Positions 11,568 through 62,686 of a stretch of 64,000 bases of DNA are shown here, one piece after another. Location of the stretch: assembly GCA_000995065.1 (NCBI GenBank), contig LBWX01000002.1:159708-223707 (forward strand). Direction: 5' to 3'. The stretch's first letter is position 1, and each line of letters opens with the position of its first letter. Made by a program: the position numbers and the translations under genes. The DNA is from a candidate division CPR2 bacterium GW2011_GWC2_39_35. Lineage in GTDB: Bacteria > Patescibacteriota > CPR2. The notes under the pieces were generated by a model. It saw only the letters and a list, made by a program, of their open reading frames with translations, was not told where the DNA came from and did not search any database.

Positions 11568-11861
11568 ACTTACGCACCCGGTGCGTTAGCGCAGGCTAGA
11601 CGATAATTATAAAAAGGATAACTAAAGTGAGAATTAGTAAACTAAATGTTGTGCTTCTCCTTTTTCTTTGATTTCGGTAGATGTACTGAGGCGGCTGAAA
11701 TTCGTAGATAAGAGACGTAAGATGTCTCACAATTCCCCCTTTTTTTTATTTTTATTTTTGCTTTAACCGTACATTAACAAGCCATAAATGGCTTTACCTC
11801 ATTTAGAGTTACAAAATCTGAATCTTTAGAGAAAGAAAAATTGTAATAATTATTAATTAAG

Positions 11862-11926
11862 CCTAAACTTCTGGGTAGTCCGGAGACATTTTTTCTCCGG
11901 ACTACCCAGAAGTTTAGGCTGAAGAG
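11862..11926. terminator. Long perfect hairpin (27-bp stem, 8-nt loop) between convergent GT4 gene and histidine-kinase gene
   Basis: AGCCTAAACTTCTGGGTAGTCCGGAGA cattttt(t) TCTCCGGACTACCCAGAAGTTTAGGCT, followed by an A/T-rich run on both sides. Confidence 0.5.
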
Positions 11927-20124: not shown

Positions 20125-20317
20125 ACGATGCTTCATTATCTCTCAAGACTTTCTGGAATTGTCACCCAAGAGTGACCTTATAAACAAAATATATAAAAAG
20201 CCCCGTCTTAAGGGGCTCTTTATACTTTATTCTTAATTCTAGTGAGAGGTAGTTCTCGATTTCACTTCGTTTCACTCGAACAATAAAACCTATTAGCTCA
20301 TTAGGCCATCCGACTAC

Positions 20318-29116: not shown

Positions 29117-29226
29117 AAATTTCTAATAACCAACGACAAATTATCAAAAATATTTTTAGACATTAGGATTTTAGAAATTGAGGTTTGATTAGAAATTAGT
29201 AATTAGAGCCATTAGAAATTAAATCC
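29117..29226. repeat. Family-Y AT-rich inverted-repeat element (attagaaattaggaattagag motif)
   Basis: gattagaaattagtaattagagccattagaaatt closely matches 62574-62608 and, in reverse complement, 56478-56520 and 62391-62430. Confidence 0.5.
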
Positions 29227-30314: not shown

Positions 30315-30492
30315 GATAGAATTTTGAATAATGTTTTGAGAATAAAAGATTAAGTGTTTAAAGGAAGTTAAAAAAAGTATTCTATTCGCCATTCGCGATT
30401 CTTATACTAAATACTTTATACCTAGTTCTTTATTCTGGCGTAAAGAAAACTCAATAATGAAATCGTGTTATAGTTTAATAAAGGAGAAAAAC

Positions 30493-33396: not shown

Positions 33397-33550
33397 ATCT
33401 CAATTAGAAATTCTTAATAAACCATATATTCTAAATTCTTTATTCTTTATTCTTTATTCTTAATTCATAATTCTTATTTCATATTGTTGTTATTTAATAA
33501 CCGTTTTGCTATACTGTTACCAGATTTTATTAAAAGAAGGGGTATGAATA

Positions 33551-38419: not shown

Positions 38420-38430
38420 ATTTAAAAAGT

Positions 38431-38476
38431 AAAAAGGGTCGAACACTCATTAGAGCGTTCGACCCTTTTTACTTTT
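38431..38476 (+). terminator. Rho-independent terminator after efp
   Basis: AAAAAGGGTCGAACactcattagagcGTTCGACCCTTTTTacTTTT: a 13-bp stem followed by a T-run. Confidence 0.6.
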
Positions 38477-46067: not shown

Positions 46068-46618
46068 AAAATCAAGGAAGAAGCGGCTACAGTGCTTTAG
46101 TAATCGTAATTGCCATCATTTTTGCCATACTCGTTTCTGTTTTAGGAATTCGGCCGCTTTTAGCTTCTAACGCTAAACTAACCAAAGAGAGAGATCAGAA
46201 GCTTGCGGAGCTTAAACGGTATACCCAAAAAAGAGATATTCTGGTAGATGCTGCCAAAAAAGAAACCGAGCTAAATGCCTTGAAAATAAAAATCCTCGAG
46301 GCTTTACCCCAAAGCAGTGATCCAACCGCTATCTTTGCGCAGATCGAAGGTATTTCCAAAGGTCTTAATGTCGATACTAGGTCCGTCAAACAATCAAGCG
46401 CCAGTAAGGCCAAAAACGCCTCTGTCCACGAGATTGTCTTAAATGTCGCTTCCGGAGGAACCTATGATGATCTTCACAAAACTTTGGAAAAATTGGAGAC
46501 TTCTCTAAGAATATTTAACGTCAAGAAAATTAGCTTATCTCCCAAAAAGGGCGACCGAATTGATTATAGTTTTAATATTAGTACTTATTATAAGGACGAG
46601 GTGAAGCTTGAAGACTAA
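46058..46618 (+). CDS. pilO: Type IV pilus assembly protein PilO
   Basis: Single TM then coiled-coil and a small alpha/beta domain. Position after pilN, overlapping by 10 nt. Confidence 0.55.
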   Translation: MELENQGRSGYSALVIVIAIIFAILVSVLGIRPLLASNAKLTKERDQKLAELKRYTQKRDILVDAAKKETELNALKIKILEALPQSSDPTAIFAQIEGISKGLNVDTRSVKQSSASKAKNASVHEIVLNVASGGTYDDLHKTLEKLETSLRIFNVKKISLSPKKGDRIDYSFNISTYYKDEVKLED

Positions 46619-46940
46619 AGGCGATAGCAAACAAACTATTTTAGCGGCGATCCTTATTATTGTAATTGGTGGCAGCGCCTTCTTTTTTTACAGCTTAAAC
46701 AAAGGTAAAAAGACAAGCGGAGTTAAGGCCAAACCCTTGCCGTTTACCGGTAAGTATGACGTGGAAGGATTTAATAAGTTTCTAATGATTAAGGAAAACG
46801 AAGAAAGGCCATTTTACGCAGTTGTGCCGCCAGATCCGGCTCAAAGCATCTGTCGCAACATTTTTACGGGCAAAAAAAGGGACTTTAGTGCCGAAGAGAA
46901 AGCAATCTGTGAGGGTGTAGGAGAAGAAAAAAAGAACTAA
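46608..46940 (+). CDS. Small single-TM protein in the PilP position of the pilus operon
   Basis: 110 aa with TM ILAAILIIVIGGSAFFFY and a short periplasmic domain with two Cys. Overlaps pilO and abuts pilB. Confidence 0.4.
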   Translation: MKTKGDSKQTILAAILIIVIGGSAFFFYSLNKGKKTSGVKAKPLPFTGKYDVEGFNKFLMIKENEERPFYAVVPPDPAQSICRNIFTGKKRDFSAEEKAICEGVGEEKKN

Positions 46941-48724
46941 TGCTTATAAAAGATCAAAAAAAGTTTGAACAAGTAATCGTAGAGTTAAAAGTCGTAAGTC
47001 CTGATCAATTAGACACTGCTAAAATCGAAAGCGTAAAGCTGGGTAAGTCTTTAGATGAGGTTCTTTTAGAATCCGGCGCTATGAGTGCCGAAGATATTGT
47101 TAAGGCAAAAGCCATTGTCTCAGAGACGCCTTATGTTAACTTGACCAACCAGAAAATTGATGAAAAAATTTTAAAAATTCTAGAAAAAGACTATTGTGAG
47201 CGCTATCAGGTAGTAGTATTTGGCATGGCTAACGGTAAGTTAAATCTAGCTATGCTCGACCCGTACAACGTTCAGGTAATTGATTTTATCGAGAAGAAGT
47301 CGGGTCAGGGGGTAGTGTCTTATGTTGCATCCGCGGCTAGCATTAAACATGTCATTTCTCAGTTCTCAGATTATTCCTCCGAAGTTTCGGAAGCCCTAAA
47401 AGGAATGAGTACCGGACCGGAAGATATTGGGGCGGCTAAAGAAAAAGAATCAGCCAATACGGAGCCATCCGTTATTTCTCAAGACGCTCCGGTAACAAGA
47501 GCGGTTAATACTATCTTGGAATATGCTATAAAGGCTAAGGCTTCCGATATTCATATTGAACCGCGAGAAAAAACGGTCAAGGTAAGATACCGAATCGATG
47601 GTATTCTAAACGACACCATGACCCTACCCAAACATATTCATGCCGCGATTGTTTCGCGTATCAAAATATTATCAAATTTAAAAATAGACGAACATCGCCT
47701 TCCTCAGGACGGTCGTTTCGCCATCAAATTAGAAGATAAGGATGTTGATCTTCGGGTTTCCATTTCTCCGATTTCTTTTGGAGAGAAGGTGGTAATTAGA
47801 ATCTTAGATAAATCGTCCGGAGTTATTACCCTAGAAAAACTAGGGCTCAAAGGGCGGGCTTTCAGGTTGATTAAAGAAGCTTCCGGAAAACCTCATGGTA
47901 TGATTTTATCGACCGGGCCAACCGGTTCTGGTAAATCAACTACTCTCTATGCAATTTTGCAGCGTATAAATTCCGTCGAAGTAAACATCGTAACGCTAGA
48001 GGATCCTGTTGAATATAACGTTGAGGGTATAAATCAGATTCAAGTTAATTCCCAAATCGGGCTTACTTTTGCTTCCGGTCTCCGCTCTATTTTAAGGCAA
48101 GATCCCGATGTCATTATGGTCGGTGAGATTAGAGATACGGAAACCGCTGATCTGGCCGTCCAATCGGCCCTTACGGGGCACATAGTGCTTTCGACTTTGC
48201 ATACCAATTCCGCTTCTGGTGTTTTGCCTCGTCTTAAAGATATGCAGGTGGAGCCGTTTCTTATAGCTTCTACCGTTAATACGGTTATCGGTCAACGTTT
48301 AGTACGAAAGATTTGCGATAAATGTAAAGAGCAATACAAGCCGAGCGAGACAGAACTTGCTTCGATTAAAGAATGTTTAAAAAACGTCTTGCCTAAAAAA
48401 GACGACCCAAGGGCGAGCGAAAAATTAGAGGACGTGGGATATGATAATCTTCCATTTATTGATTCCGGAGATTATAATCTTTATAAGGGAAAAGGTTGTG
48501 ATAATTGCCATGGAACGGGTTATCAGGGCAGGGTTGGCGTATACGAGGTTTTTTCAATTACTCAAGACCTCGAAAAACTATTGCTTCAGGAGGTAACCAG
48601 CAGCGAAATCCAGAATGAGGCAGTAAAGGAAGGGATGGTAACCATGAAACAAGACGGTTATCTAAAAGCCCTAAGCGGTATCACATCTTTAAAAGAAGTG
48701 GCAAGAGTAGCACAAGATTATTAG
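46940..48724 (+). CDS. pilB: Type IV pilus assembly ATPase PilB (GspE family)
   Basis: N-terminal T2SSE_N domain, Walker A GPTGSGKSTTLYA, Asp box, and a tetracysteine CDKCK...CDNCHGTGYQGR zinc motif. Confidence 0.9.
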   Translation: MLIKDQKKFEQVIVELKVVSPDQLDTAKIESVKLGKSLDEVLLESGAMSAEDIVKAKAIVSETPYVNLTNQKIDEKILKILEKDYCERYQVVVFGMANGKLNLAMLDPYNVQVIDFIEKKSGQGVVSYVASAASIKHVISQFSDYSSEVSEALKGMSTGPEDIGAAKEKESANTEPSVISQDAPVTRAVNTILEYAIKAKASDIHIEPREKTVKVRYRIDGILNDTMTLPKHIHAAIVSRIKILSNLKIDEHRLPQDGRFAIKLEDKDVDLRVSISPISFGEKVVIRILDKSSGVITLEKLGLKGRAFRLIKEASGKPHGMILSTGPTGSGKSTTLYAILQRINSVEVNIVTLEDPVEYNVEGINQIQVNSQIGLTFASGLRSILRQDPDVIMVGEIRDTETADLAVQSALTGHIVLSTLHTNSASGVLPRLKDMQVEPFLIASTVNTVIGQRLVRKICDKCKEQYKPSETELASIKECLKNVLPKKDDPRASEKLEDVGYDNLPFIDSGDYNLYKGKGCDNCHGTGYQGRVGVYEVFSITQDLEKLLLQEVTSSEIQNEAVKEGMVTMKQDGYLKALSGITSLKEVARVAQDY

Positions 48725-48732
48725 AGGAGAAA

Positions 48733-48846
48733 ATGTCAAATTACAAAGCTCAAATGCCAAATCAAATCCTAAGTTCAAATGTCAAATTATTTGATATTAA
48801 GTCATTTAAAATTCATTTGGTATTTTGATTTTGACATTTGATATTT
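48733..48846. repeat. Family-X ~115-bp inverted-repeat element (aaatgtcaaat...tttgacattt) between pilB and pilT
   Basis: Homologous along its length to 51261-51373 and 57698-57815. Terminal arms TGTCAAAT / ATTTGACA. Confidence 0.55.
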
Positions 48847-48864
48847 TTAACTTCGGGAGGGAAT

Positions 48865-49932
48865 ATGGTTCAAACAGTTAAAATAGAGACATTACTAGAA
48901 GAAGTCTTAAGGCAGGATGCCTCCGACCTTCATTTATCAGTCGGAGTTCCGCCAACTTTAAGAGTAGATGGAAGGCTTACGCCTTTGTCGGAATATCCTC
49001 CGCTAACGCCGGAACTTGCCGAAAGTCTTGTTTTTCAGATAGTTGATGATAATCAAAAAGAAATTTTGATTCGAGATAAGGAAGTGGACTTTTCTTTTGC
49101 CTTTGGCGATGTAGCAAGGTTTAGGGCAAATGCATATCATCAAAGAGGGAACGTTGGAATTGCTTTAAGGCTTATTCCGGTAAAAATAAGAGGCCTGGAA
49201 GAACTAAACTTACCAAAAACCTGTACTGCTTTTACGCAGTACCCCAGAGGCTTAGTTCTAGTTACCGGACCTACCGGCTCCGGTAAATCCACTACTCTTG
49301 CTGCAATGATTGACACCATAAACAAAGACCGTGCGTGCCACATTATCACTATTGAAGATCCGATTGAATATAATCACGTTAATAAGAAAGCCATTGTTGA
49401 GCAAAGAGAAGTTCATTATGATACTCGATCCTTTGCAGCTGCTTTAAGGTCGGCCCTTCGTGAAGATCCGGATGTTGTTTTAATCGGTGAGATGCGGGAC
49501 TTAGAGACGATTTCTTCGGCTATTACTATTGCTGAGACCGGACACTTGGTGCTTGCAACTTTGCATACCAATAATGCGGCCCAATCTGTAGATAGAATTG
49601 TCGACGTTTTTCCACCGCATCAGCAGCAGCAGATTAGAGTCCAGCTGGCCGGCATCTTGCAGGGAATTGTTTCTCAGAGGTTAATTCCGGCTATTGGAGG
49701 CGGCAGGGTTGCGGTGGCCGAAATTCTTGTTGCGACGCCGGCGGTTCGAAATATTATTAGGGAAGGAAAAACTCATCAGCTAGAAGGCGTCATCCAAACA
49801 GGAACTGAGTTTGGTATGATTACCATGGATGCGGCTCTTGCCAGCTACGTAAAGGCCGGGAAAATTACACTGGATGAAGCAAAAAGTTATGCTATCGATA
49901 TTCCTCAATTGGAAAGGTACATAAGAGGCTAA
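48865..49932 (+). CDS. pilT: Twitching-motility ATPase PilT
   Basis: Walker A GPTGSGKSTTLAAMID, ITIEDPIEY, and AHLVLATLHTN motifs. Ribosome-binding site GGGAGGG lies 4 nt upstream of ATG 48865. Confidence 0.9.
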   Translation: MVQTVKIETLLEEVLRQDASDLHLSVGVPPTLRVDGRLTPLSEYPPLTPELAESLVFQIVDDNQKEILIRDKEVDFSFAFGDVARFRANAYHQRGNVGIALRLIPVKIRGLEELNLPKTCTAFTQYPRGLVLVTGPTGSGKSTTLAAMIDTINKDRACHIITIEDPIEYNHVNKKAIVEQREVHYDTRSFAAALRSALREDPDVVLIGEMRDLETISSAITIAETGHLVLATLHTNNAAQSVDRIVDVFPPHQQQQIRVQLAGILQGIVSQRLIPAIGGGRVAVAEILVATPAVRNIIREGKTHQLEGVIQTGTEFGMITMDAALASYVKAGKITLDEAKSYAIDIPQLERYIRG

Positions 49933-49933
49933 A

Positions 49934-51145
49934 ATGATTTCATTTGTTTACACTGCTAAGACTATAGAGGGGCAGCTTGTTACCGGCGAGATCAATGCGC
50001 CGGATGCAAATACTGTTGCTCGGATGCTAAATGAGCGTCAGCTCTATCCGATGAGGATAGAAGCTAAAAAGAGCTCCAATATCTTAAATTTGAGTTTTTT
50101 TGAAGGAGTTTCCACCAAAGACAAGGCGCTGATTATAAGGCAATTTTCTACCTTAATAATTGCTGGTTTGCCCGTTGCCCAAGCCCTCCAGGTGTTAATA
50201 AAGCAAATTGACAAACCTCATCTTCAAAAGATCTTCATAAAGATTTTAAAAGACATCGAAAATGGCAGTAGTTTATCCGAGGCTTTTTCCCGCTTTCCAA
50301 AAGTTTTTTTAACGACAGATATTAGTCTTATTAAATCGGGAGAGGCTTCCGGTACCTTGGATGTCGTTCTAAAAAGAATGGCAAAGCAGCTGGAAAAAGA
50401 GCAGGCTTTGCATTCAAAAATAAAAAGCGCCATGATTTATCCTTCTTTCGTGGTAGTGGTTGTTATTGGGGTAATTGCCATTATGCTGATGTACGTAATG
50501 CCGAAATTATCCAGCCTGTATGCCGGCTACAAAGGGAAGCTCCCGGCTATTACTCAGCTGATGCTTGATTTAAGTAATTTCCTAATTCATAGCTGGTGGA
50601 TGATTATTATTGGACTTGTACTTCTTGCAGTATCCGGCAGAGCTTTTATTAATACCCCAAACGGTCGCTATATGTGGGATCAAACCAAGCTTGCTATTCC
50701 GGGTATCGGCGCCCTGGTAGAAAAGATAATTTTAGCAAGATTTACAAGAACGCTTGGCACCTTAATGGGAGCAGGAGTACCGGTTTTGGACTCTCTAATG
50801 ATTGCCTCCAAGTCTTGCGGCAATGTAATCTATGAGATAGAAGTTAGAAAGGCGGCGGAAGCGGTAAAAGGCGGTGCGGCGTTGTCCGATCCGTTAAAGA
50901 AAAACCCTCATTTTCCGGCTGTTGTGGGACAAATGATAAACGTTGGGGAACAAACGGGGGAAATGGACGAGATGCTAGAGGGTCTTGCCAACTATTACGA
51001 GGAAGAAGTTGATAATATAATTAAGGGCTTGTCATCGCTTCTAGAGCCGATTATAATTGTGGTATTAGGAGTAGTAGTTGGTGGCATATTAGTAGCCATT
51101 ATGCTGCCGATATACAGTTTGTCACAAGTGATGTTTAAAAAGTAG
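49934..51145 (+). CDS. pilC: Type IV pilus platform protein PilC (GspF family)
   Basis: Duplicated GspF domain with three TM segments. The conserved Gly-rich motif GEQTGEMDEML is present. Confidence 0.85.
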   Translation: MISFVYTAKTIEGQLVTGEINAPDANTVARMLNERQLYPMRIEAKKSSNILNLSFFEGVSTKDKALIIRQFSTLIIAGLPVAQALQVLIKQIDKPHLQKIFIKILKDIENGSSLSEAFSRFPKVFLTTDISLIKSGEASGTLDVVLKRMAKQLEKEQALHSKIKSAMIYPSFVVVVVIGVIAIMLMYVMPKLSSLYAGYKGKLPAITQLMLDLSNFLIHSWWMIIIGLVLLAVSGRAFINTPNGRYMWDQTKLAIPGIGALVEKIILARFTRTLGTLMGAGVPVLDSLMIASKSCGNVIYEIEVRKAAEAVKGGAALSDPLKKNPHFPAVVGQMINVGEQTGEMDEMLEGLANYYEEEVDNIIKGLSSLLEPIIIVVLGVVVGGILVAIMLPIYSLSQVMFKK

Positions 51146-51192
51146 GCTAATGAGTTGATAGGCGAATAAGATACGTCATTTCTGCTGGCACT

Positions 51193-51238
51193 AGTCATTC
51201 TCGCGAAGGCGGGTCCTACGACTCGTACGAGAATCCAG
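51193..51238. repeat. GTCATYC-type hairpin element
   Basis: GTCATTCTCGcgaaggcgggtcctacgactcgtaCGAGAATCCAG. Same terminal motif as 26203-26232. Confidence 0.45.
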
Positions 51239-51260
51239 TGCAGGTGAAAAAAGGAGTTTA

Positions 51261-51373
51261 ATGTCAAATGTCAAAGCTCAAATTTCAAATCAAGTTCTAA
51301 TGTTAAATGCTTTAAATTGGTCATTAAGTCATTTGTCATTCATTTGATATTTGTAATTTGGCATTTGGATTTA
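51261..51373. repeat. Family-X inverted-repeat element directly upstream of the major pilin gene
   Basis: atgtcaaatgtcaaagctcaaat...gtcatt...catttgatatttg...ttggcatttggattt aligns with 48733-48846 and 57698-57815. Confidence 0.55.
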
Positions 51374-51393
51374 ATAATATCTAGGAGGGAATA

Positions 51394-51897
51394 ATGAAGA
51401 AATTTAAGAAAATTAGAGGGGGTGGTGCTAGAGGTTTTACCTTAATCGAGCTATTGGTGGTTATGGCCATTATCGCTATCTTAGTAACGCTTATGATCTG
51501 GGCGATTAATAACGCCAGGATGCAGCAGCGAAATACCCAAAGAAGAAATGTTGTCCAAACTATTAAGACTTCCTTGGAGTCTTATTATAGCTCCAAGAAG
51601 GCTTATCCGGATACTGCTGATGACTCTGTTACTGGCTTTAGTTTAATTGATCCTGACGGAGGAGCTGCTGCGTATTTAAAGGGTTATGTTAAAGATGCCC
51701 CAATTGCCCAGCTTCAGGATCCATCAGGAGAAGAGACAAGGATCTGTTATGAATCGAATATAGGTGCTAAATATTCTCTTGTGATGTTGCCTGAACCTAT
51801 GGATGCTACAGAAAATTGTCCCGAATTATGGGGAACGGATAGACCACTTACTGCAGCAAATGACCTTCCTGATTACGAAGACTTCTCTCAATATTAA
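51394..51897 (+). CDS. pilA: Type IV pilin (major pilin candidate)
   Basis: Prepilin leader MKKFKKIRGGGARG|FTLIELLVVMAIIAIL with Glu+5. Ribosome-binding site GGAGGGAATA-ATG. Confidence 0.8.
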   Translation: MKKFKKIRGGGARGFTLIELLVVMAIIAILVTLMIWAINNARMQQRNTQRRNVVQTIKTSLESYYSSKKAYPDTADDSVTGFSLIDPDGGAAAYLKGYVKDAPIAQLQDPSGEETRICYESNIGAKYSLVMLPEPMDATENCPELWGTDRPLTAANDLPDYEDFSQY

Positions 51898-54427: not shown

Positions 54428-55471
54428 ATGAGCCAAAAAAATAAAGGTGCTGCCTTGCTCTGGGCCATTATATTTATCGGCGCCTTATCTATTGTTATCG
54501 CTAACTTAGCCGTTATGACTTATAACGAATCCCGCCTAACAAGCAATTCCGATCTTTCGTATAAGGCTTATGCGGCAGCCCAATCCGGGATTGATTACGG
54601 CTTGTTTAAAATAAGGGAGGAGATCGCAGAAAGCGGTATTCAGAATTTTGACAGTTCGGTAGCTCCACTTGTCTACACTTTCTGGAATGGTACTCCTATT
54701 ATCGATGAAGATGAGCAGGAAACCAAGGTGGAAGTAACCTGGACAAAAGAATTAGATCTAAGTAATCCGTGTCCTGATTGTAAGCCAAAAATCACGGTTG
54801 ATAGCGTGGCGACGGTTACTGCCGGCGAAAAAACCGCCAAAAGAAGACTCCAGGTGATCCACGATTATAAAAGGACAATTCAGGCGGTAACGTTTGAAAA
54901 TGGTAATGCCGACATTAACACGCTTAACACCGAGTTAAAGGATCGTTTGAATGCTATTGTAACTGTTGATATCTATAATCCGCCCTCAGTAAATCCGCCT
55001 GCAATACCGTTGGAAGATAGAGGCGATAAGCCGGAATTTAAGCTGACTTTTAATAAAAAAGGCGGCATTCCGATCGAGATGGTAATTAATGCTGATAAGT
55101 ATAACGGGGCGGTGCTTCAGTCTGATAAGAACTACCGTTGGCGCTTTAATTATGTCGGTGGCGCCGGAGTGCTGGCCACTTTAGAAGAAGCAAGTGATAT
55201 TGATATTGATCTTAATCCTGGCACAGTATGTGACGTTAACCTTAACCCTGGTACAAAATGCGAGAGGCGCTGGAAATGTGGGGCCGAAGAATCATTTTTC
55301 GAAGAGGATAAGAATACTGATTTCTGGACGAAAAATCAAAATGAACTCGCCTCGATTAGCATTAACCCTAATGGTACTGTTGCCGGCGATCAGAATAACC
55401 ACTATCTCTTAGTAATTAATGGTCAGATAGACAATATTGTTGGAATCGGCAGAGAATCGATCCAGAATTAG
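54428..55471 (+). CDS. PilX-like minor pilin / pilus tip-associated protein
   Basis: PilX_N-type N-terminus KNKGAALLWAIIFIGALSIVIANLAV followed by a large beta domain. Confidence 0.55.
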   Translation: MSQKNKGAALLWAIIFIGALSIVIANLAVMTYNESRLTSNSDLSYKAYAAAQSGIDYGLFKIREEIAESGIQNFDSSVAPLVYTFWNGTPIIDEDEQETKVEVTWTKELDLSNPCPDCKPKITVDSVATVTAGEKTAKRRLQVIHDYKRTIQAVTFENGNADINTLNTELKDRLNAIVTVDIYNPPSVNPPAIPLEDRGDKPEFKLTFNKKGGIPIEMVINADKYNGAVLQSDKNYRWRFNYVGGAGVLATLEEASDIDIDLNPGTVCDVNLNPGTKCERRWKCGAEESFFEEDKNTDFWTKNQNELASISINPNGTVAGDQNNHYLLVINGQIDNIVGIGRESIQN

Positions 55472-56433
55472 CTGCGGCGTCGGCCGTGGAAAGCTTGGTG
55501 GACTTCTTTTAGCTGCTTATTGGTAAGATGAGTGTAAATTTGCGTTGTCGTAATAGAGCTATGCCCCAGCATCGATTGGACCGATCTAATGTCGGCGCCA
55601 TTTATAAGCAAATCGGTTGCAAAACTATGGCGTAGCGTATGAGGCGTCACTTTTTTTACGATTCCGGCGGCTCTGGCATAGGCATTGACGATTCGCTGCA
55701 CGCTTCTTGACGTTAGGCGCAAATATTCGCCGTCTTCGATCTCATCCTTGGAGCCGCTATATCTAATAAATAGCGGCTTAAAATTATCCGCTCTTAGCTT
55801 TAGATACTCATTTATCCAGTGCTTGGCTCCGTCAGACATAAAAACGACCCGGTCTTTAGAGCCTTTTCCTCTTACCATAAATTCGCCTCGATCTAGGTTT
55901 ACTTGGGTTCTATTTAGACCAACAAGCTCCGAAACCCTGAGGCCGGTGGAGAACAATAGCTCTAATATTGCTTTATCTCTTACGGAAATAATCTTATTTG
56001 TCTCTGTTTGTTTCTGCTTTAAAGGAGCGTCCATAAGCCTTACCACTTCCTCAAATTCTAAAAACTCAACTTGCTTTCTTTTGGCGTCTCCAAGCTCGAT
56101 CTTTTCGGCGGATAAACTCCTCACATCTCTTTTGGCCAAATATTTAAGGAAAGCTCTAAGGGCGATGACATGATAGTTTTGAGTAATTTTTTTTAAAGTA
56201 TTGCCTTTTTGGTCTGTCATCCGGTTTAAATGCAATCTATAAGAACGCACTAAGTCCATATCGATTTTTTGAGGACCAAAATCGTCGCCCTCTTTACTTT
56301 CGGCAAATTCTAAGAAGCGTCTCAGATAGTGCTCGTAGTTTAAAATAGTAAGCTCCGAGTGATTTTTTTCTAATTCACAGTATTCTAAAAAATCGGAAAT
56401 TAAGTCGGCGGTGGTCATATGCCCATGATACAA
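55468..56433 (-). CDS. Tyrosine site-specific recombinase, XerC/XerD family
   Basis: C-terminal catalytic region LRHSFATDLLINGADIRSVQSMLGHSSITTTQIYTHL with catalytic Tyr. N-terminal SAM-like core-binding domain. Confidence 0.8.
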   Translation of the reverse strand: MYHGHMTTADLISDFLEYCELEKNHSELTILNYEHYLRRFLEFAESKEGDDFGPQKIDMDLVRSYRLHLNRMTDQKGNTLKKITQNYHVIALRAFLKYLAKRDVRSLSAEKIELGDAKRKQVEFLEFEEVVRLMDAPLKQKQTETNKIISVRDKAILELLFSTGLRVSELVGLNRTQVNLDRGEFMVRGKGSKDRVVFMSDGAKHWINEYLKLRADNFKPLFIRYSGSKDEIEDGEYLRLTSRSVQRIVNAYARAAGIVKKVTPHTLRHSFATDLLINGADIRSVQSMLGHSSITTTQIYTHLTNKQLKEVHQAFHGRRRS

Positions 56434-56477
56434 GATTTCTTTGGTCAGATCAAAGTTTAAAATATGAACAGTAAATA

Positions 56478-56598
56478 AATATCTAATTCCTAATTACTCT
56501 AATTGACCTAATAAAATCCCAATGACAAAATGTCTAAAGTTCTTGTTTGGAAATTGGGATTTATTTAGAATAATTAGAAATTAGGTAAATTAGACATT
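56478..56598. repeat. Family-Y inverted-repeat element in the divergent xer/rsmH promoter region
   Basis: Arms atctaattcctaattactctaattgacctaataaaatccc and gggatttatttagaataattagaaattaggtaaattagacat flank a ~45-bp core. Confidence 0.5.
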
Positions 56599-56657
56599 TC
56601 TCAGTGTCTAATGCTTGGTTATATGTTAAAATCAGCAAAAGGATTAATAAAGAGAAA

Positions 56658-57605
56658 ATGTCCAACAACTTCTATCACATCCCCGTCCTCCTCACCGAAA
56701 CCATCGAAGCCTTAAACCTAAAGTCCGGTTTAACAATTGTCGACGGGACGCTTGGCGGCGGCGGGCACGCCAAACTTATTTTAGAGAAGATTTTGCCTAA
56801 CGGCCGGCTTATCGGTATTGATCAGGACGCCGAAGCTCTAAAGGCTGCAAAAGAAAATCTGGAGGATTTTAAGGAAAACACGGTTTTTGTGCATGATAAT
56901 TTTCGCAACTTAAATCAAATTTTAGACAGCTTAGGGATAGAAAAGGTTAATGGGATTCTTTTAGATCTTGGGGTGTCGATGCATCAGATTATGTCGTCTC
57001 TAAGAGGCTTTAGTTTTGCAGGATTTGAGGAGAACTTGAACGCACCGCTCGACATGCGGATGAATCGGGATAATCCCATTACCGCAGAAAATATTCTAAA
57101 TGAGTATGGCGAGGCTGAACTTGAGGAATTATTGAGGAAGCTAGGCGAAGAACGTTTCGCAAGGTCAATTGCCAAGATGATTGTCTTAAAGCGTCCCCTA
57201 AAGTCTGTAAACGCCCTCTTAGAGGCTATTAAGGCCGGTACGCCGCCTAAATACCGATTCGGTAAGCCTACGGCAGCTTGGGCGGGCAACGTATTTAGGG
57301 CCGTAAGAATGGAAGTAAATGAAGAGCTAGAAGTAGTTAGGGAAGTTTTAGATGTAGCGCTTAATCGGTTAAATACTGGCGGTCGGCTTGCCATCATCAC
57401 TTTCCATTCCTTGGAAGATCGAATTGTTAAGCAGACCTTTAAGAATTGGGCAGAAGAGATAAAACCGCAGCCGGGGTTTGGCGTTACGCAAAAGAAGGCG
57501 ATAGCAAAAATTGTCACCAGAAAACCAATTTTACCAACAGCCGATGAAGTAAAATCCAATCCTGCTTCTTCCAGCGCCAAGCTTCGCGTTGTTGAAAAAA
57601 TTTAG
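56658..57605 (+). CDS. rsmH: 16S rRNA (cytosine1402-N4)-methyltransferase RsmH (MraW)
   Basis: FYHIPVLLTETIEAL...VDGTLGGGGH N-terminus and ITFHSLEDRIVK motif. Confidence 0.9.
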   Translation: MSNNFYHIPVLLTETIEALNLKSGLTIVDGTLGGGGHAKLILEKILPNGRLIGIDQDAEALKAAKENLEDFKENTVFVHDNFRNLNQILDSLGIEKVNGILLDLGVSMHQIMSSLRGFSFAGFEENLNAPLDMRMNRDNPITAENILNEYGEAELEELLRKLGEERFARSIAKMIVLKRPLKSVNALLEAIKAGTPPKYRFGKPTAAWAGNVFRAVRMEVNEELEVVREVLDVALNRLNTGGRLAIITFHSLEDRIVKQTFKNWAEEIKPQPGFGVTQKKAIAKIVTRKPILPTADEVKSNPASSSAKLRVVEKI

Positions 57606-57697
57606 ACAGCAGTTGGTTGAAAATATTTAAGCTTAGTTAATAAATTTACTATAATTAAACGCATCGTGAACAACTTAAGTGTTCAAGAATGACTAGG

Positions 57698-57815
57698 AAA
57701 TGTCAAATGACAAAGCTCAAATGTCAAATCAATTTTAAAAAATCTAAATGTTAAAAATTTAGGCATTTAGTCATTAATTATTCATTTGAGATTTAGATTT
57801 TGACATTTGGATTTA
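57698..57815. repeat. Family-X inverted-repeat element between convergent rsmH and BON-domain genes
   Basis: aaatgtcaaatgacaaagctcaaatgtcaaatcaa...catttgagatttagattttgacatttggattt. Third copy of the family. Confidence 0.55.
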
Positions 57816-57820
57816 ACAAA

Positions 57821-58108
57821 TCATATCCCCTCTATCTCTATCTCATTCATGACATCTCTGACTCCCGGAGTGTCCCAGGCATCGTCGCCGGCCGCTCTTT
57901 TTTCCAGTTGATTTTGGACCGTGCCTTTTAAAGTTACAATGCCTTCTTTTACAATAATATCAACCTTGCCAGAATCAACCCACGAATCCCAGAACAAGAT
58001 ATCTCTTACTAAAGTATCAACCTCCTCGTCATCTAAAATATCCGGCTGGGTAAGGCGAGAAAAATAAGGGCCATAAAAGTATAAATAATACCTTTGATCG
58101 TTGTTCAT
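57821..58108 (-). CDS. BON-domain protein (OsmY-like)
   Basis: VDIIVKEGIVTLKGTVQNQLEKRAAGDDAWDTPGVRDVMNEIEIE matches the BON pattern (V.V.V..G.V.L.G.V......A...A....GV..V.N.I). Confidence 0.55.
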   Translation of the reverse strand: MNNDQRYYLYFYGPYFSRLTQPDILDDEEVDTLVRDILFWDSWVDSGKVDIIVKEGIVTLKGTVQNQLEKRAAGDDAWDTPGVRDVMNEIEIEGI

Positions 58109-60231: not shown

Positions 60232-60357
60232 CTACTCCCTTCCCACTAAGACACGATATAATATTCTTCGACCTTGTGGAGAAGTACATTAATGTAATTC
60301 TCCACTCCGTTTCACTTCGCTCGAATAATATATCACGGAATGGCGGGAAGGGAGTAG
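60232..60357. repeat. ~125-bp nested palindromic element
   Basis: Outer 13-bp perfect inverted repeats CTACTCCCTTCCC / GGGAAGGGAGTAG enclose inner inverted repeats (gtggagaa / ttctccac; ttcgac / cgctcgaa). The inner motif gtttcacttcg...ctcgaa recurs at 20262-20284. Confidence 0.45.
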
Positions 60358-61557: not shown

Positions 61558-62388
61558 ATGGCCGTTAAGGTAAAGATAAGCCCATTAGAGCTTAGAGAAG
61601 AAATCAAAAAAAACCGGGAGATAAGTCCGGTAAGAATAATCCTTACAACTCCCGAGCTAAGTGCAAAACTTGCCTTAGAGGCATTCGAGAAAGATGGCCG
61701 TCATCCTTATGTAGTTTCTAATTTTACAATAAGCGAAGGTTTTTTAAGGGAAAAAGAAGATGGCGTTAAAAGCTATGGTCCAACCCAGCTTAAAATTGCG
61801 CTTCATGCCGAAACCATCAAATATATTGATATTGTTTTGCCAAAACACGGCTATGGTTATAAGAAAAGAGAAGCTTCCGAAGACGCTTTAGCTCTAAAAG
61901 AAATGATAGAAAAAGCGATCGGGAAAAGGGCAATTAAAGTGTCGGCCAAAGTGGAAAATATGGAGATAGATTATTCAAAGTTTGATATTGTTATTTATCA
62001 GTGTGTAGATTATCGATTCTTTCTAGAAAATGTGTCTAATTTGATTCTCGAAAAAGGCATGATACCGCTTGTTATTAGTAGTGCCGGTGCTGTTGCTATC
62101 TTAAAGGATAGGGTGAATCCTGATATGAAAAAAAGCATTAAAGATCAAATAATTAGAGCTTTTAAATTATCTGGAGCGAAGCTGTTTCTGATTCTAAATC
62201 ATGGCAATCAGTGTGGCGGTTATAAAAATTGCGGTTGTAGCGGGGCCGAGGCTCTCTCGGATGTGGCGATCGTAAAAGAAATGGCCACAAAAATCCTAAA
62301 GGACGGCGGTTTTTACGGCGTCCAGGTTGTCTCCAGATACCAAACTCTGGATGCATATTATAGTGTGGAGTTTAGAGATATTACATAA
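61558..62388 (+). CDS. Hypothetical protein with beta-carbonic-anhydrase-like motifs (paralog B of tandem pair)
   Basis: 276 aa. Contains VIYQCVDYRFF (C-x-D-x-R) and, 66 residues later, LILNHGNQCGGY (H-x-x-C-G-G), as in the beta-CA zinc site. Confidence 0.5.
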   Translation: MAVKVKISPLELREEIKKNREISPVRIILTTPELSAKLALEAFEKDGRHPYVVSNFTISEGFLREKEDGVKSYGPTQLKIALHAETIKYIDIVLPKHGYGYKKREASEDALALKEMIEKAIGKRAIKVSAKVENMEIDYSKFDIVIYQCVDYRFFLENVSNLILEKGMIPLVISSAGAVAILKDRVNPDMKKSIKDQIIRAFKLSGAKLFLILNHGNQCGGYKNCGCSGAEALSDVAIVKEMATKILKDGGFYGVQVVSRYQTLDAYYSVEFRDIT

Positions 62389-62390
62389 GT

Positions 62391-62610
62391 AAATTTCTAA
62401 TTCCTAATTATTCTAATTAATCTAATAAAGTTCCAATTACGAAATAAATTTTCAATTGTACCATTTTTTAATCTTTATTGAATTTACAATGACGCAATTT
62501 TCAAACATATAACAACGAAAAAATAGTTTGAAGATTGACTACTTAAAAATTGAAAATTAAAATAATTGGGATTTGATTAGAAATTAGGAATTAGAGTAAT
62601 TAGAAATTTT
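62391..62610. repeat. Family-Y element: ~40-bp terminal inverted repeats flanking a 130-bp AT-rich core
   Basis: Left aaatttctaattcctaattattctaattaatctaataaag, right gggatttgattagaaattaggaattagagtaattagaaattt. These are reverse complements of each other. Confidence 0.5.
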
Positions 62611-62686
62611 TAATTTCTTCAAAGAATTGCATCTCTTTTTAAGCTATGTCATACTGGAAAGTAAGCAATTAAAAGGAGGTTTTATA

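What the first reader, a model, noticed from the sequence alone, without database searches (positions are those of the whole stretch)
48733..48846. Family-X 115-bp inverted-repeat element sits immediately upstream of both pilT and the major pilin gene with an identical GGAGGGAATA-ATG translation-initiation region
Three copies (48733-48846, 51261-51373, 57698-57815) are alignable over their whole length. They share terminal inverted arms TGTCAAAT...ATTTGACA and internal TTGACA-like hexamers. Two of the three lie directly 5' of type IV pilus genes, and both are followed by the same ribosome-binding-site/start context. This suggests co-regulation of pilT and pilA by a shared cis element, acting as promoter/operator or mRNA leader. 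Alternatively a MITE has hitch-hiked into these spacers. The third copy lies between convergent genes, so a purely promoter role is not sufficient.
Basis: seen in the sequence. Interest (0 to 1): 0.6.

Follow-up and report, generated by a model that had tools for sequence, protein, structure and literature searches.

The report
Widespread heptad-word hairpin repeat, not pilus-specific
The three 115-base hairpin repeats are real, but they look like copies of a small, probably mobile, intergenic repeat that occurs next to all kinds of genes in more than a dozen bacterial phyla, not a switch dedicated to pilus genes.

Summary
Three alignable 113-116 nt elements lie at 48732-48845, 51260-51372 and 57699-57814. 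All are on the + strand, are 78-79% identical to each other, and each folds into a long imperfect hairpin. Two sit 19-21 nt upstream of the pilT and major-pilin start codons.

The interpretation as a shared pilus cis-regulator is not supported.
- Flanking genes there fall into 181 Pfam families with no enrichment.
- All four flanking-gene arrangements occur, in both element orientations.
- Only 4 of 120 loci contain pilus genes.
- Relatives with the same pilB-pilT-pilC order have a pilB-pilT spacer of about 28 nt, against 140 nt here. That difference matches a 114-nt insertion.
- The shared GGAGGGAAT is the genome's usual strong Shine-Dalgarno sequence and lies outside the repeat.

Each arm is built of CAAAT/ATTTG words spaced 7 nt apart, separated by variable dinucleotides that do not covary. 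Borders are sharp and there is no target-site duplication. No Rfam, phage or plasmid match and no literature match was found.

Best reading: a MITE/REPIN-like palindromic repeat that the pil operon carries passively. Its spread across phyla remains unexplained.

The parts
48732..48845 (+). Copy c1 of the heptad-word hairpin repeat (114 nt, 23% GC). It lies in the pilB-pilT spacer, 7 nt after the pilB stop codon and 19 nt before the pilT ATG.
   Evidence: Alignment, pattern statistics, fold -31 kcal/mol with z -5.6, in-register arms, HMM E=8e-22, GC content.
51260..51372 (+). Copy c2 (113 nt, 26% GC). It lies in the pilC-pilin spacer, 114 nt after the pilC stop codon and 21 nt before the pilin ATG.
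   Evidence: -27.9 kcal/mol, z -4.5; E=5e-21.
57699..57814 (+). Copy c3 (116 nt, 22% GC). It lies between the convergent genes rsmH/MraW (+) and a BON-domain gene (-), ending 6 nt from the BON stop codon.
   Evidence: -24.9 kcal/mol, z -3.1; E=3e-20.
48856..48867 (+). pilT Shine-Dalgarno sequence GGAGGGAAT plus ATG. This is flanking host sequence, not part of the repeat.
   Evidence: The family's right flanks are not conserved. The Shine-Dalgarno sequence stays unpaired in the in-context fold.
51384..51396 (+). Pilin Shine-Dalgarno sequence GGAGGGAATA plus ATG. This is flanking host sequence, not part of the repeat.
46940..51897 (+). Host context: pilB (46940-48724), pilT (48865-49932), pilC (49934-51145) and the major pilin (51394-51897). 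They are co-directional and form part of a pilM..pilD plus minor-pilin cluster.
   Evidence: Pfam hits T2SSE/MshEN, T2SSE, T2SSF and N_methyl. Gene calls agree.

Best explanation
The three elements are copies of a small, non-coding, palindromic dispersed repeat. It resembles a MITE/REPIN-type mobile element.

Anatomy: each arm is a run of 5-nt words (CAAAT on one arm, ATTTG on the other) spaced every 7 nt and separated by variable dinucleotides. The consensus is AATGTCAAAT-NN-CAAAGCTCAAAT-NN-CAAAT ... ATTTG-NN-ATTTGGATTTTG-NN-ATTTG-NN-ATT.

Mechanism, with shown and inferred steps marked:
- Shown: the element occupies short intergenic spacers next to any kind of gene, in either orientation.
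- Shown: in this CPR (Candidate Phyla Radiation, Patescibacteria) genome from Rifle groundwater, the pilB-pilT and pilC-pilin spacers and a convergent-gene spacer each contain one copy, and relatives lack it at the pil sites.
- Inferred: the copies arrived by insertion.
- Inferred: because the pil copies lie inside a co-directional gene cluster, they are probably transcribed with it and fold into an AT-rich hairpin just 5' of an unpaired Shine-Dalgarno sequence. Any effect on mRNA stability or processing would be a by-product, not a pilus-specific control.
- Not identified: the enzyme that mobilises the element.
For:
- Right arm: it was not part of the search pattern, yet it matches 20-25 of 25 word positions in 72 copies.
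- Borders: conservation stops exactly at AAT...ATT.
- Amplification within genomes: DS_bin_10 yielded 10 pattern-matched loci; its five in-register copies are 84-94% identical. Several loci hold extra copies.
- No gene-class bias: 181 Pfam families among 94 neighbouring ORFs.
- All gene arrangements and both orientations occur, and there is no bias relative to GC skew.
- Empty sites: 0 of 80 related pilT loci carry the element. The pilB-pilT spacer is about 28 nt (typically 6-85) in relatives and 140 nt here, and 140-114=26.
- The same spacer holds unrelated repeats in other lineages, so it tolerates insertions.
- No Rfam family matches even at E<=10.
- No excess of promoter-like or terminator-like sites.
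- The Shine-Dalgarno sequences are unpaired in in-context folds.
Against: - No target-site duplication of 3 nt or more was found, and no autonomous partner or transposase was seen in the held loci. Mobility is therefore inferred, not shown.
- Word positions are 84-100% conserved while the spacer dinucleotides are near-random. Arms are much better conserved than centres and flanks in a composite subfamily. This could mean selection on each copy in place, that is, a host function.
- The three window copies are only 78-79% identical, so they are not a recent burst.
- All three copies cluster within 9 kb of about 84 kb examined, and two lie in the pil operon.
- In two other genomes a copy sits just 5' of pilM (L027) or pilT (L116).
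- MITE families are normally genus-specific (PMC11602168). This family spans phyla.
Confidence: 0.62

Rival explanations
1. General-purpose intercistronic RNA hairpin. The transcribed element acts, like E. coli REP/BIME elements in operons, as a barrier to 3'-5' decay or as an RNase processing site. It would then set different transcript levels for pilB, pilT-pilC and the pilin, and serve as a weak bidirectional terminator between convergent genes (c3).
For: - All three window copies are co-oriented with the upstream gene.
- Two copies lie inside a co-directional operon where the pilin should need far higher expression. This is established knowledge of type IV pili, not a result obtained here.
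- The hairpins are stable, with z-scores of -3 to -5.6.
- On the + strand the conserved mid-arm non-Watson-Crick positions are two G-U wobbles and one mismatch. On the opposite strand they are two mismatches and one wobble.
- The + strand folds better for c1 and c2.
- The Shine-Dalgarno sequence is left free.
- Other lineages carry different hairpins at the same pil spacers.
Against: - Across genomes the element is not oriented with transcription. Full hairpins gave ++ 18 against -- 13, and all copies gave 34 against 22.
- 11 of 52 full hairpins lie between divergent genes.
- The variable positions show no covariation, so base pairing itself is not maintained.
- For c3 the minus strand folds better.
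- There is no GC-rich stem or U-tract.
Confidence: 0.2
2. Array of protein-binding words. The CAAAT/ATTTG words spaced 7 nt apart would be recognition sites for a widely conserved nucleic-acid-binding protein, such as an OB-fold or cold-shock-type single-strand binder or a nucleoid protein. The family would then persist across phyla because of a host function, not because of mobility.
For: - Word positions are 84-100% conserved, while the 2-nt spacers are near-random and do not covary.
- The arms are nearly invariant while centres and flanks diverge.
- The AT-rich element persists in host loci of 31-62% GC.
- Other hairpin families have the same architecture with different words: CTAAT in this window and CGAAAT in L161.
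- There is a published precedent for unexplained sharing of heptamer repeats across phyla (PMC4679880).
Against: - No candidate protein has been identified.
- Copies occur next to unrelated genes in every arrangement.
- Copies not selected by the search pattern have degenerate words.
- Genome-specific subfamilies and amplification fit a selfish element.
- Selection for competence to transpose would give the same conservation pattern.
Confidence: 0.12
3. Pilus-specific cis-regulatory element. A shared promoter, operator or leader would co-regulate pilT and the major pilin.
For: - Two of the three copies lie 19-21 nt upstream of pilT and the pilin, each followed by GGAGGGAAT, which occurs only at these two sites in the window.
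- In L027 a left-arm copy is immediately 5' of pilM, and in L116 a copy is 119 nt 5' of pilT.
Against: - The third copy lies between convergent non-pilus genes.
- 116 of 120 family loci have no pilus gene within 8 kb.
- 80 related pil operons lack the element.
- No promoter with correct spacing was found.
- The Shine-Dalgarno motif is typical of this genome and lies outside the repeat.
Confidence: 0.05

Closest known systems
[quoted passage not shown] Correia/NEMIS, RUP, ERIC)
   Same: Small (about 115 nt), non-coding and AT-rich. The two halves are inverted repeats that fold as a hairpin. There are multiple copies per genome, located in intergenic spacers and often co-transcribed with neighbouring genes. 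Related genomes show empty sites.
   Different: No target-site duplication was detected, and no cognate IS was found. The arms are built of heptad-spaced words with free dinucleotide spacers. The family occurs in 13 or more phylum-level groups, whereas 97.4% of MITE clusters are genus-specific (PMC11602168).
REP/BIME and REPIN elements mobilised by RAYT (TnpA-REP) transposases
   Same: Imperfect palindromes, or doublets, forming a long hairpin with conserved non-paired positions. There is no target-site duplication. They occur in intergenic regions, including inside operons, where they can stabilise upstream mRNA segments.
   Different: REPs carry a conserved GTAG or CGTC tag (PMC3733652 title and abstract), are usually GC-rich, number in the hundreds per genome and are lineage-specific. 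This element starts with AATGTC, has 22-26% GC, has 3 copies in about 84 kb, and no RAYT gene was identified.
Heptamer repeat families shared across phyla (TAACTGA repeats of Beggiatoaceae, Cyanobacteria and Bacteroidetes)
   Same: 7-nt periodic words in intergenic DNA, often just upstream of start codons. They are shared by distantly related phyla with no known transfer mechanism (PMC4679880).
   Different: Those are direct tandem repeats of one exact heptamer. Here the words are 5 nt plus 2 variable nt, arranged as two inverted arms around a loop, giving a discrete 82-250 nt element with sharp ends.

Membership tests
MITE | Small non-coding element with terminal inverted repeats | tested here: met
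   113-116 nt. The 31-nt arms pair at 84-100% of word positions. The internal ATG-initiated frame has no conserved length, and the variable sites fall on codon positions 1 and 2 (direct reading).
MITE | Target-site duplication flanking the element | tested here: not met
   No direct repeat of 3-8 nt was found at any offset in 70 copies. Only the internal AT of AAT/ATT recurs.
MITE | Multiple dispersed copies, with empty sites in relatives | tested here: met
   3 copies in the window. DS_bin_10 yielded 10 pattern-matched loci, and its five in-register copies are 84-94% identical. 0 of 80 related pil loci carry the element, and their spacers are shorter by the element's length.
MITE | A cognate autonomous IS with matching ends | tested here: inconclusive
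   No pair of arms flanks a large ORF in the 120 held loci, and no transposase family stood out among the neighbours. Whole genomes could not be scanned.
REP/REPIN (RAYT-associated) | Conserved GTAG or CGTC tag at the palindrome end | tested here: not met
   The element's ends are AATGTCAAAT and ATTTGNNATT.
REP/REPIN (RAYT-associated) | A RAYT (Y1 transposase) gene in the genome, flanked by REPs | not tested
   Only about 84 kb of the source genome was available, and no systematic scan for Y1 transposases was run.
Intrinsic (Rho-independent) terminator | GC-rich stem followed by a U-tract | tested here: not met
   The terminator scan did not flag the three copies. The elements have 22-26% GC.
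Sigma-70 promoter/operator | -35 and -10 hexamers with 16-18 nt spacing, placed upstream of the gene | tested here: not met
   34 promoter-like sites against 32 +/- 6 in shuffles. The TTGACA hexamers in the arms have no -10 partner. The only hit near the pilin gene (TTGTAA-16-AATAAT, 9 of 12 matches) would start transcription inside the Shine-Dalgarno sequence.
Any curated RNA family (Rfam 15) | Covariance-model match | tested here: not met
   0 matches at gathering thresholds over the whole window, and 0 at E<=10 for 48600-51500.
Structured cis-regulatory RNA (generic) | Compensatory changes that maintain base pairs | tested here: not met
   At the four variable arm positions the Watson-Crick frequency equals that of shuffled partners (p=0.17, 0.36, 0.95, 0.85).
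Integron attC site | R''/R' core sites (RYYYAAC...GTTRRRY) in an array next to intI | tested here: not met
   No such core sites are present in the element sequence (direct reading). The copies are dispersed singly. The nearby tyrosine recombinase (55468-56433) shows the Phage_integrase plus SAM-like domain layout, which I read as Xer-like.

The most novel reading that the evidence does not exclude
The element represents a previously uncatalogued superfamily of 'heptad-word hairpins'. These have arms of C-N-AAT-type 5-mers every 7 nt with free spacers. Variants use CAAAT, CTAAT or CGAAAT words. On this reading the superfamily is maintained in many bacterial phyla in one of two ways. One is an unusually promiscuous mobilisation system that leaves no target-site duplication. 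The other is a conserved host protein that reads the words on single-stranded DNA or RNA. Either would make it a pan-bacterial non-coding element, not a lineage-specific MITE.
Probability: 0.18. Interest if true: 0.75.

Novelty: new variant of a known kind. Interest (0 to 1): 0.4.

Why it matters
For the pilus operon the result is deflationary. The repeat is most likely a passenger, so nobody should infer pilT/pilA co-regulation from it.

The family itself is worth a note. A 115-nt AT-rich non-coding element keeps nearly identical arms in Patescibacteria, Desulfobacterota, Ignavibacteriota, Nitrospirota, Chloroflexota, Omnitrophota and others. Pairs of copies from different phyla reach about 85% identity. 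Bacterial MITEs and REPs are normally confined to a genus.

If a mobilising enzyme or a binding protein could be found, it would point to one of two things. One is a route of non-coding DNA exchange among uncultivated anaerobes, including CPR bacteria that take up DNA with these very pili. The other is a new, widely used cis-element.

Tried and rejected
- Rfam, at gathering thresholds and at E<=10: no family.
- tRNA/tmRNA scan: none.
- Small peptide gene: the element begins with A-ATG and has Shine-Dalgarno-like purines upstream in all three copies. However, the frame ends after 12, 28 or 31 codons, and family variation falls on codon positions 1 and 2 with position 3 fixed. Rejected as a coding sequence (direct reading).
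- Promoter and terminator scans: no excess and no well-placed site.
- attC site and DNA-uptake sequence: the motifs and the copy pattern do not fit (direct reading).
- Target-site duplication search at all offsets for k=2-8: none.
- Covariation test at the variable arm positions: none.
- Orientation relative to flanking genes and to local GC skew: no bias.
- Search for arms flanking a transposase within the loci: none.
- Phage and plasmid carriers: 0 hits in IMG/VR by pattern. No blastn hit in INPHARED or PLSDB, although the low-complexity filter may hide weak hits.
- Literature search for arm sequences: only chance matches to unrelated sequences and none at all for the right-arm and longer strings. 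One unrelated paper matched MITE plus CPR.
Only about 19 kb of extra flank was obtained.

Full report

Yes. Reading the three stretches and aligning them shows three copies alignable along their full length.

- A 33-nt left-arm pattern with up to 3 mismatches hits exactly these three places, against 0 in 100 shuffles.
- Pairwise identity is 78-79%.
- Each copy folds on its own into one long imperfect hairpin, with MFE -31, -27.9 and -24.9 kcal/mol and z-scores of -5.6, -4.5 and -3.1.
- A profile HMM built from family members finds no other copy in the 64-kb window. It finds none in about 19 kb of additional flanking sequence recovered from public assemblies of the same organism.

**2. Gene context**

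Pfam scans give the following order:

- pilM 44455, pilN 45489, pilO 46058, and an unassigned ORF at 46608
- pilB 46940-48724
- [c1]
- pilT 48865-49932
- pilC 49934-51145
- [c2]
- major pilin 51394-51897
- prepilin peptidase 51931, then minor pilins
- a tyrosine recombinase 55468-56433 (-)
- rsmH/MraW 56604-57605 (+)
- [c3]
- a BON-domain gene 57821-58108 (-)

The sequence comes from a Rifle groundwater MAG (GCA_001771115.1, contig MESU01000053.1, and several other assemblies).

**3. The 'identical translation-initiation region'**

GGAGGGAAT occurs exactly twice in the window, at these two genes. The spacing to ATG differs by one base.

Strong GGAGG or GAGGGAGG Shine-Dalgarno (SD) sequences are the rule in this genome. 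Examples are pilM aGGAGGGtag, pilN GAGGGAGGc, pilO GAGGGAGGt and BON aaaGGAGGaag.

The 10-11 nt between the repeat end and the SD differ between c1 and c2. In the wider family, conservation stops abruptly at the terminal ...ATT. The SD is therefore host sequence, not part of the element.

**4. What the element is: a member of a very widespread family**

From composition I estimate roughly 1-4 chance matches in that collection; this is my inference, not a tool result.

The records are MAGs labelled as follows:

- many Patescibacteria/CPR (Candidate Phyla Radiation) lineages
- many Desulfobacterota (Desulfobacteraceae, Syntrophaceae, Desulfatiglandales)
- Ignavibacteria and Chlorobiota
- Nitrospirota/Thermodesulfovibrionia
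- Dehalococcoidia/Chloroflexi
- Brocadiales, Marinimicrobia, Latescibacterota, Aminicenantia, Schekmanbacteria and Omnitrophota
- a Gammaproteobacterium

Several hits lie in contigs of 0.1-5 Mb. Host loci range from 31 to 62% GC, while the element is 22-26% GC. Mis-binning of a single lineage therefore cannot explain the spread.

The only similarity between the window and these loci is the element itself. For example, c1 is 80.5% identical over 118 nt to a Thermodesulfovibrionia copy.

**5. Anatomy**

In 72 copies the right arm was not part of the search pattern. It nevertheless matches ATTTG-NN-ATTTGGATTTTG-NN-ATTTG-NN-ATT at 20-25 of 25 specified positions, in register with the left arm AATGTCAAAT-NN-CAAAGCTCAAAT-NN-CAAAT.

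- Length: element length is 82-250 nt with a mode of 110-120, because the centre varies.
- Words: each arm is a run of 5-nt words (CAAAT/CAAAG, or ATTTG/TTTTG) starting every 7 nt.
- Word conservation: word positions are 84-100% Watson-Crick between the arms.
- Spacers: the 2-nt spacers are highly variable and do not covary. Observed pairing equals that of shuffled partners (p=0.17, 0.36, 0.95, 0.85).
- Mid-arm spacer: the fixed mid-arm spacer (CT against GA) is a conserved non-pair.
- Borders: the borders are sharp, and no target-site duplication of 3-8 nt exists at any offset.
- Degeneracy: copies found secondarily, not selected by the pattern, have more degenerate words such as CAAAGTCCAAAT and CAAAACTCAAAT. 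The family therefore grades into a continuum.

The window also contains a second family with the same architecture but CTAAT/ATTAG words (56472-56598, 62386-62619, 29176-29220). A relative's pilB-pilT spacer holds a CGAAAT/ATTTCG-word hairpin.

**6. Is it tied to pilus genes or to any function class?**

No.

- The ORFs flanking the element's right arm in the 120 loci hit 181 different Pfam families. The most frequent families (response regulators and a methyltransferase family) each appear in only 4 of 94 ORFs, and no transposase family stands out.
- Flanking-gene arrangements for full hairpins are ++ 18, -- 13, divergent 11 and convergent 10. Every intergenic type is used, in both orientations.
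- Orientation is also unrelated to local GC skew (51 against 55).
- Homologues of the window's pilus proteins occur in only 4 of 120 loci. In two of these (L027, 5' of pilM; L116, 119 nt 5' of pilT) the element is adjacent to a pil gene. From genome fractions I would expect about 2 loci by chance, so this is not significant.

**7. Empty sites**

Eighty metagenomic loci encode PilT relatives (52-77% identity), most with the same pilB-pilT-pilC order. None carries the element.

Their pilB-pilT spacers are typically 6-85 nt, with a median of about 28. One example is a 6-nt spacer in L128. The spacer here is 140 nt, and 140-114=26. This is what an insertion into an ordinary short spacer would look like.

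Other lineages carry unrelated repeats in the same spacer: GC-rich repeats in L153 and L168, and a different hairpin in L161. The site simply tolerates insertions.

**8. Amplification and transfer**

Copies from the same MAG are on average more alike (82%; the five in-register DS_bin_10 copies are 84-94%) than copies from different MAGs. The latter have a mean of 71% and a 95th percentile of 80.5%.

Some pairs from differently labelled phyla reach 84-86%. Examples are L013 (delta proteobacterium) against L035 (CPR-labelled), and L046 (Patescibacteria) against L097 (Omnitrophota).

The window's copies at 78-79% are moderately related and are not a recent burst. In a 370-nt composite subfamily of Desulfobacterota the arms are almost invariant while the centre and outer parts are 70-80% identical.

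No copy was found in IMG/VR, INPHARED phages or PLSDB plasmids.

**9. How it most likely works**

Shown:
- It is a discrete, multi-copy palindromic repeat with sharp ends.
- It occupies short spacers regardless of gene function and orientation.
- It is absent from orthologous sites in relatives.

Inferred:
- It is, or was, mobile, as a MITE/REPIN-like non-autonomous element.
- It has been exchanged among phyla.
- In this operon it is co-transcribed and forms an AT-rich hairpin directly 5' of an unpaired SD. Any effect on mRNA decay or processing would be a side effect.

Not shown: the mobilising enzyme, any transcript end, or any binding protein.

The strong word-versus-spacer contrast in conservation has two possible sources. 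It could reflect what a transposase needs, or it could reflect a host protein reading the words. The present data cannot separate these two.

**10. Comparison with known systems**

It works like a MITE or a REPIN, but it fails defining features of each.

- There is no target-site duplication (MITE).
- There is no GTAG/CGTC tag, and no RAYT gene was identified (REP).
- It is not in Rfam.
- It does not resemble an intrinsic terminator or a sigma-70 promoter.
- It shows no covariation that would support a structured RNA.

Its heptad periodicity and cross-phylum spread recall the unexplained TAACTGA heptamer repeats of Beggiatoaceae, Cyanobacteria and Bacteroidetes (PMC4679880). Those, however, are direct tandem repeats.

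A survey of 183,232 genomes found prokaryotic MITE clusters to be genus-specific in 97.4% of cases (PMC11602168). The breadth seen here is therefore unusual. I found no paper containing the arm sequences in a relevant context.

**11. Verdict**

I rate it a new variant of a known kind. It is ordinary with respect to pilus biology and moderately interesting as a family, because of its heptad-word design, its lack of target-site duplication and its cross-phylum distribution.

Noticed in passing
window 56472-56598; 62386-62619; 29176-29220: A second hairpin/repeat family with the same heptad architecture but different words (CTAAT / ATTAG, e.g. TCTAATT CCTAATT ... AATTAGA AATTAGG). One copy fills the divergent spacer between the recombinase and rsmH. 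In another, the two arms are 163 nt apart.
   Followed up: partly
window 33427-33480; 20217-20239; 30403-30436: T-rich direct heptamer runs (TCTTTAT TCTTTAT TCTTAAT ...) in intergenic DNA. One lies about 70 nt upstream of a start codon at about 33553.
   Followed up: no
window 51196-51237: A GC-rich inverted repeat (ATTCTCG...CGAGAAT enclosing GGGTCCTACGACTC) in the pilC-pilin spacer, just upstream of copy c2. Its fold is not better than shuffles (z -0.7). It might be a separate small repeat or a terminator remnant.
   Followed up: partly
L161 2536-2709; L150 2642-2764; L153 1096-1237; L168 206-407: Other CPR-like lineages carry unrelated repeats in their pil-operon spacers: a CGAAAT/ATTTCG-word hairpin, another AT-rich hairpin, and GC-rich GCGAAGC-type repeats. 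These spacers seem to be recurrent landing sites.
   Followed up: partly
L021, L034, L044, L086, L102, L116 (about 370 nt around the element): In several Desulfobacterota MAGs the hairpin is embedded in a larger composite repeat of about 370 nt. That repeat is bounded by a direct repeat resembling AGGACGTGGYTTTGAT. L086 (CP070751.1) is labelled 'Thermoplasmata archaeon' yet is 95% identical here to a Deltaproteobacteria chromosome (CP070673.1), so the label looks doubtful.
   Followed up: partly
L121/L122 (window 49934-51145 equivalent); L207 5595-6164: Strain or assembly variants of the same organism. pilC is split into two ORFs in two assemblies but is intact in the window and in L123. rsmH is truncated (189 aa against 315 aa) in another sample's scaffold.
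   Followed up: no
window 11857-11923; 38425-38476; 60232-60357: Three strong inverted repeats unrelated to family X: 30-nt arms at 97% complementarity with a 7-nt loop, 24-nt arms at 96% with a 4-nt loop, and 35-nt arms at 77% placed 56 nt apart.
   Followed up: no
window 48725-48736, 51248-51263, 57691-57702: All three copies are preceded by Shine-Dalgarno-like purine runs (GAGGAG, AGGAG, AGGA) 1-4 nt before the element's own ATG. This gives short, non-conserved ORFs of 31, 28 and 12 codons. It is probably fortuitous, but it could cause spurious translation.
   Followed up: partly
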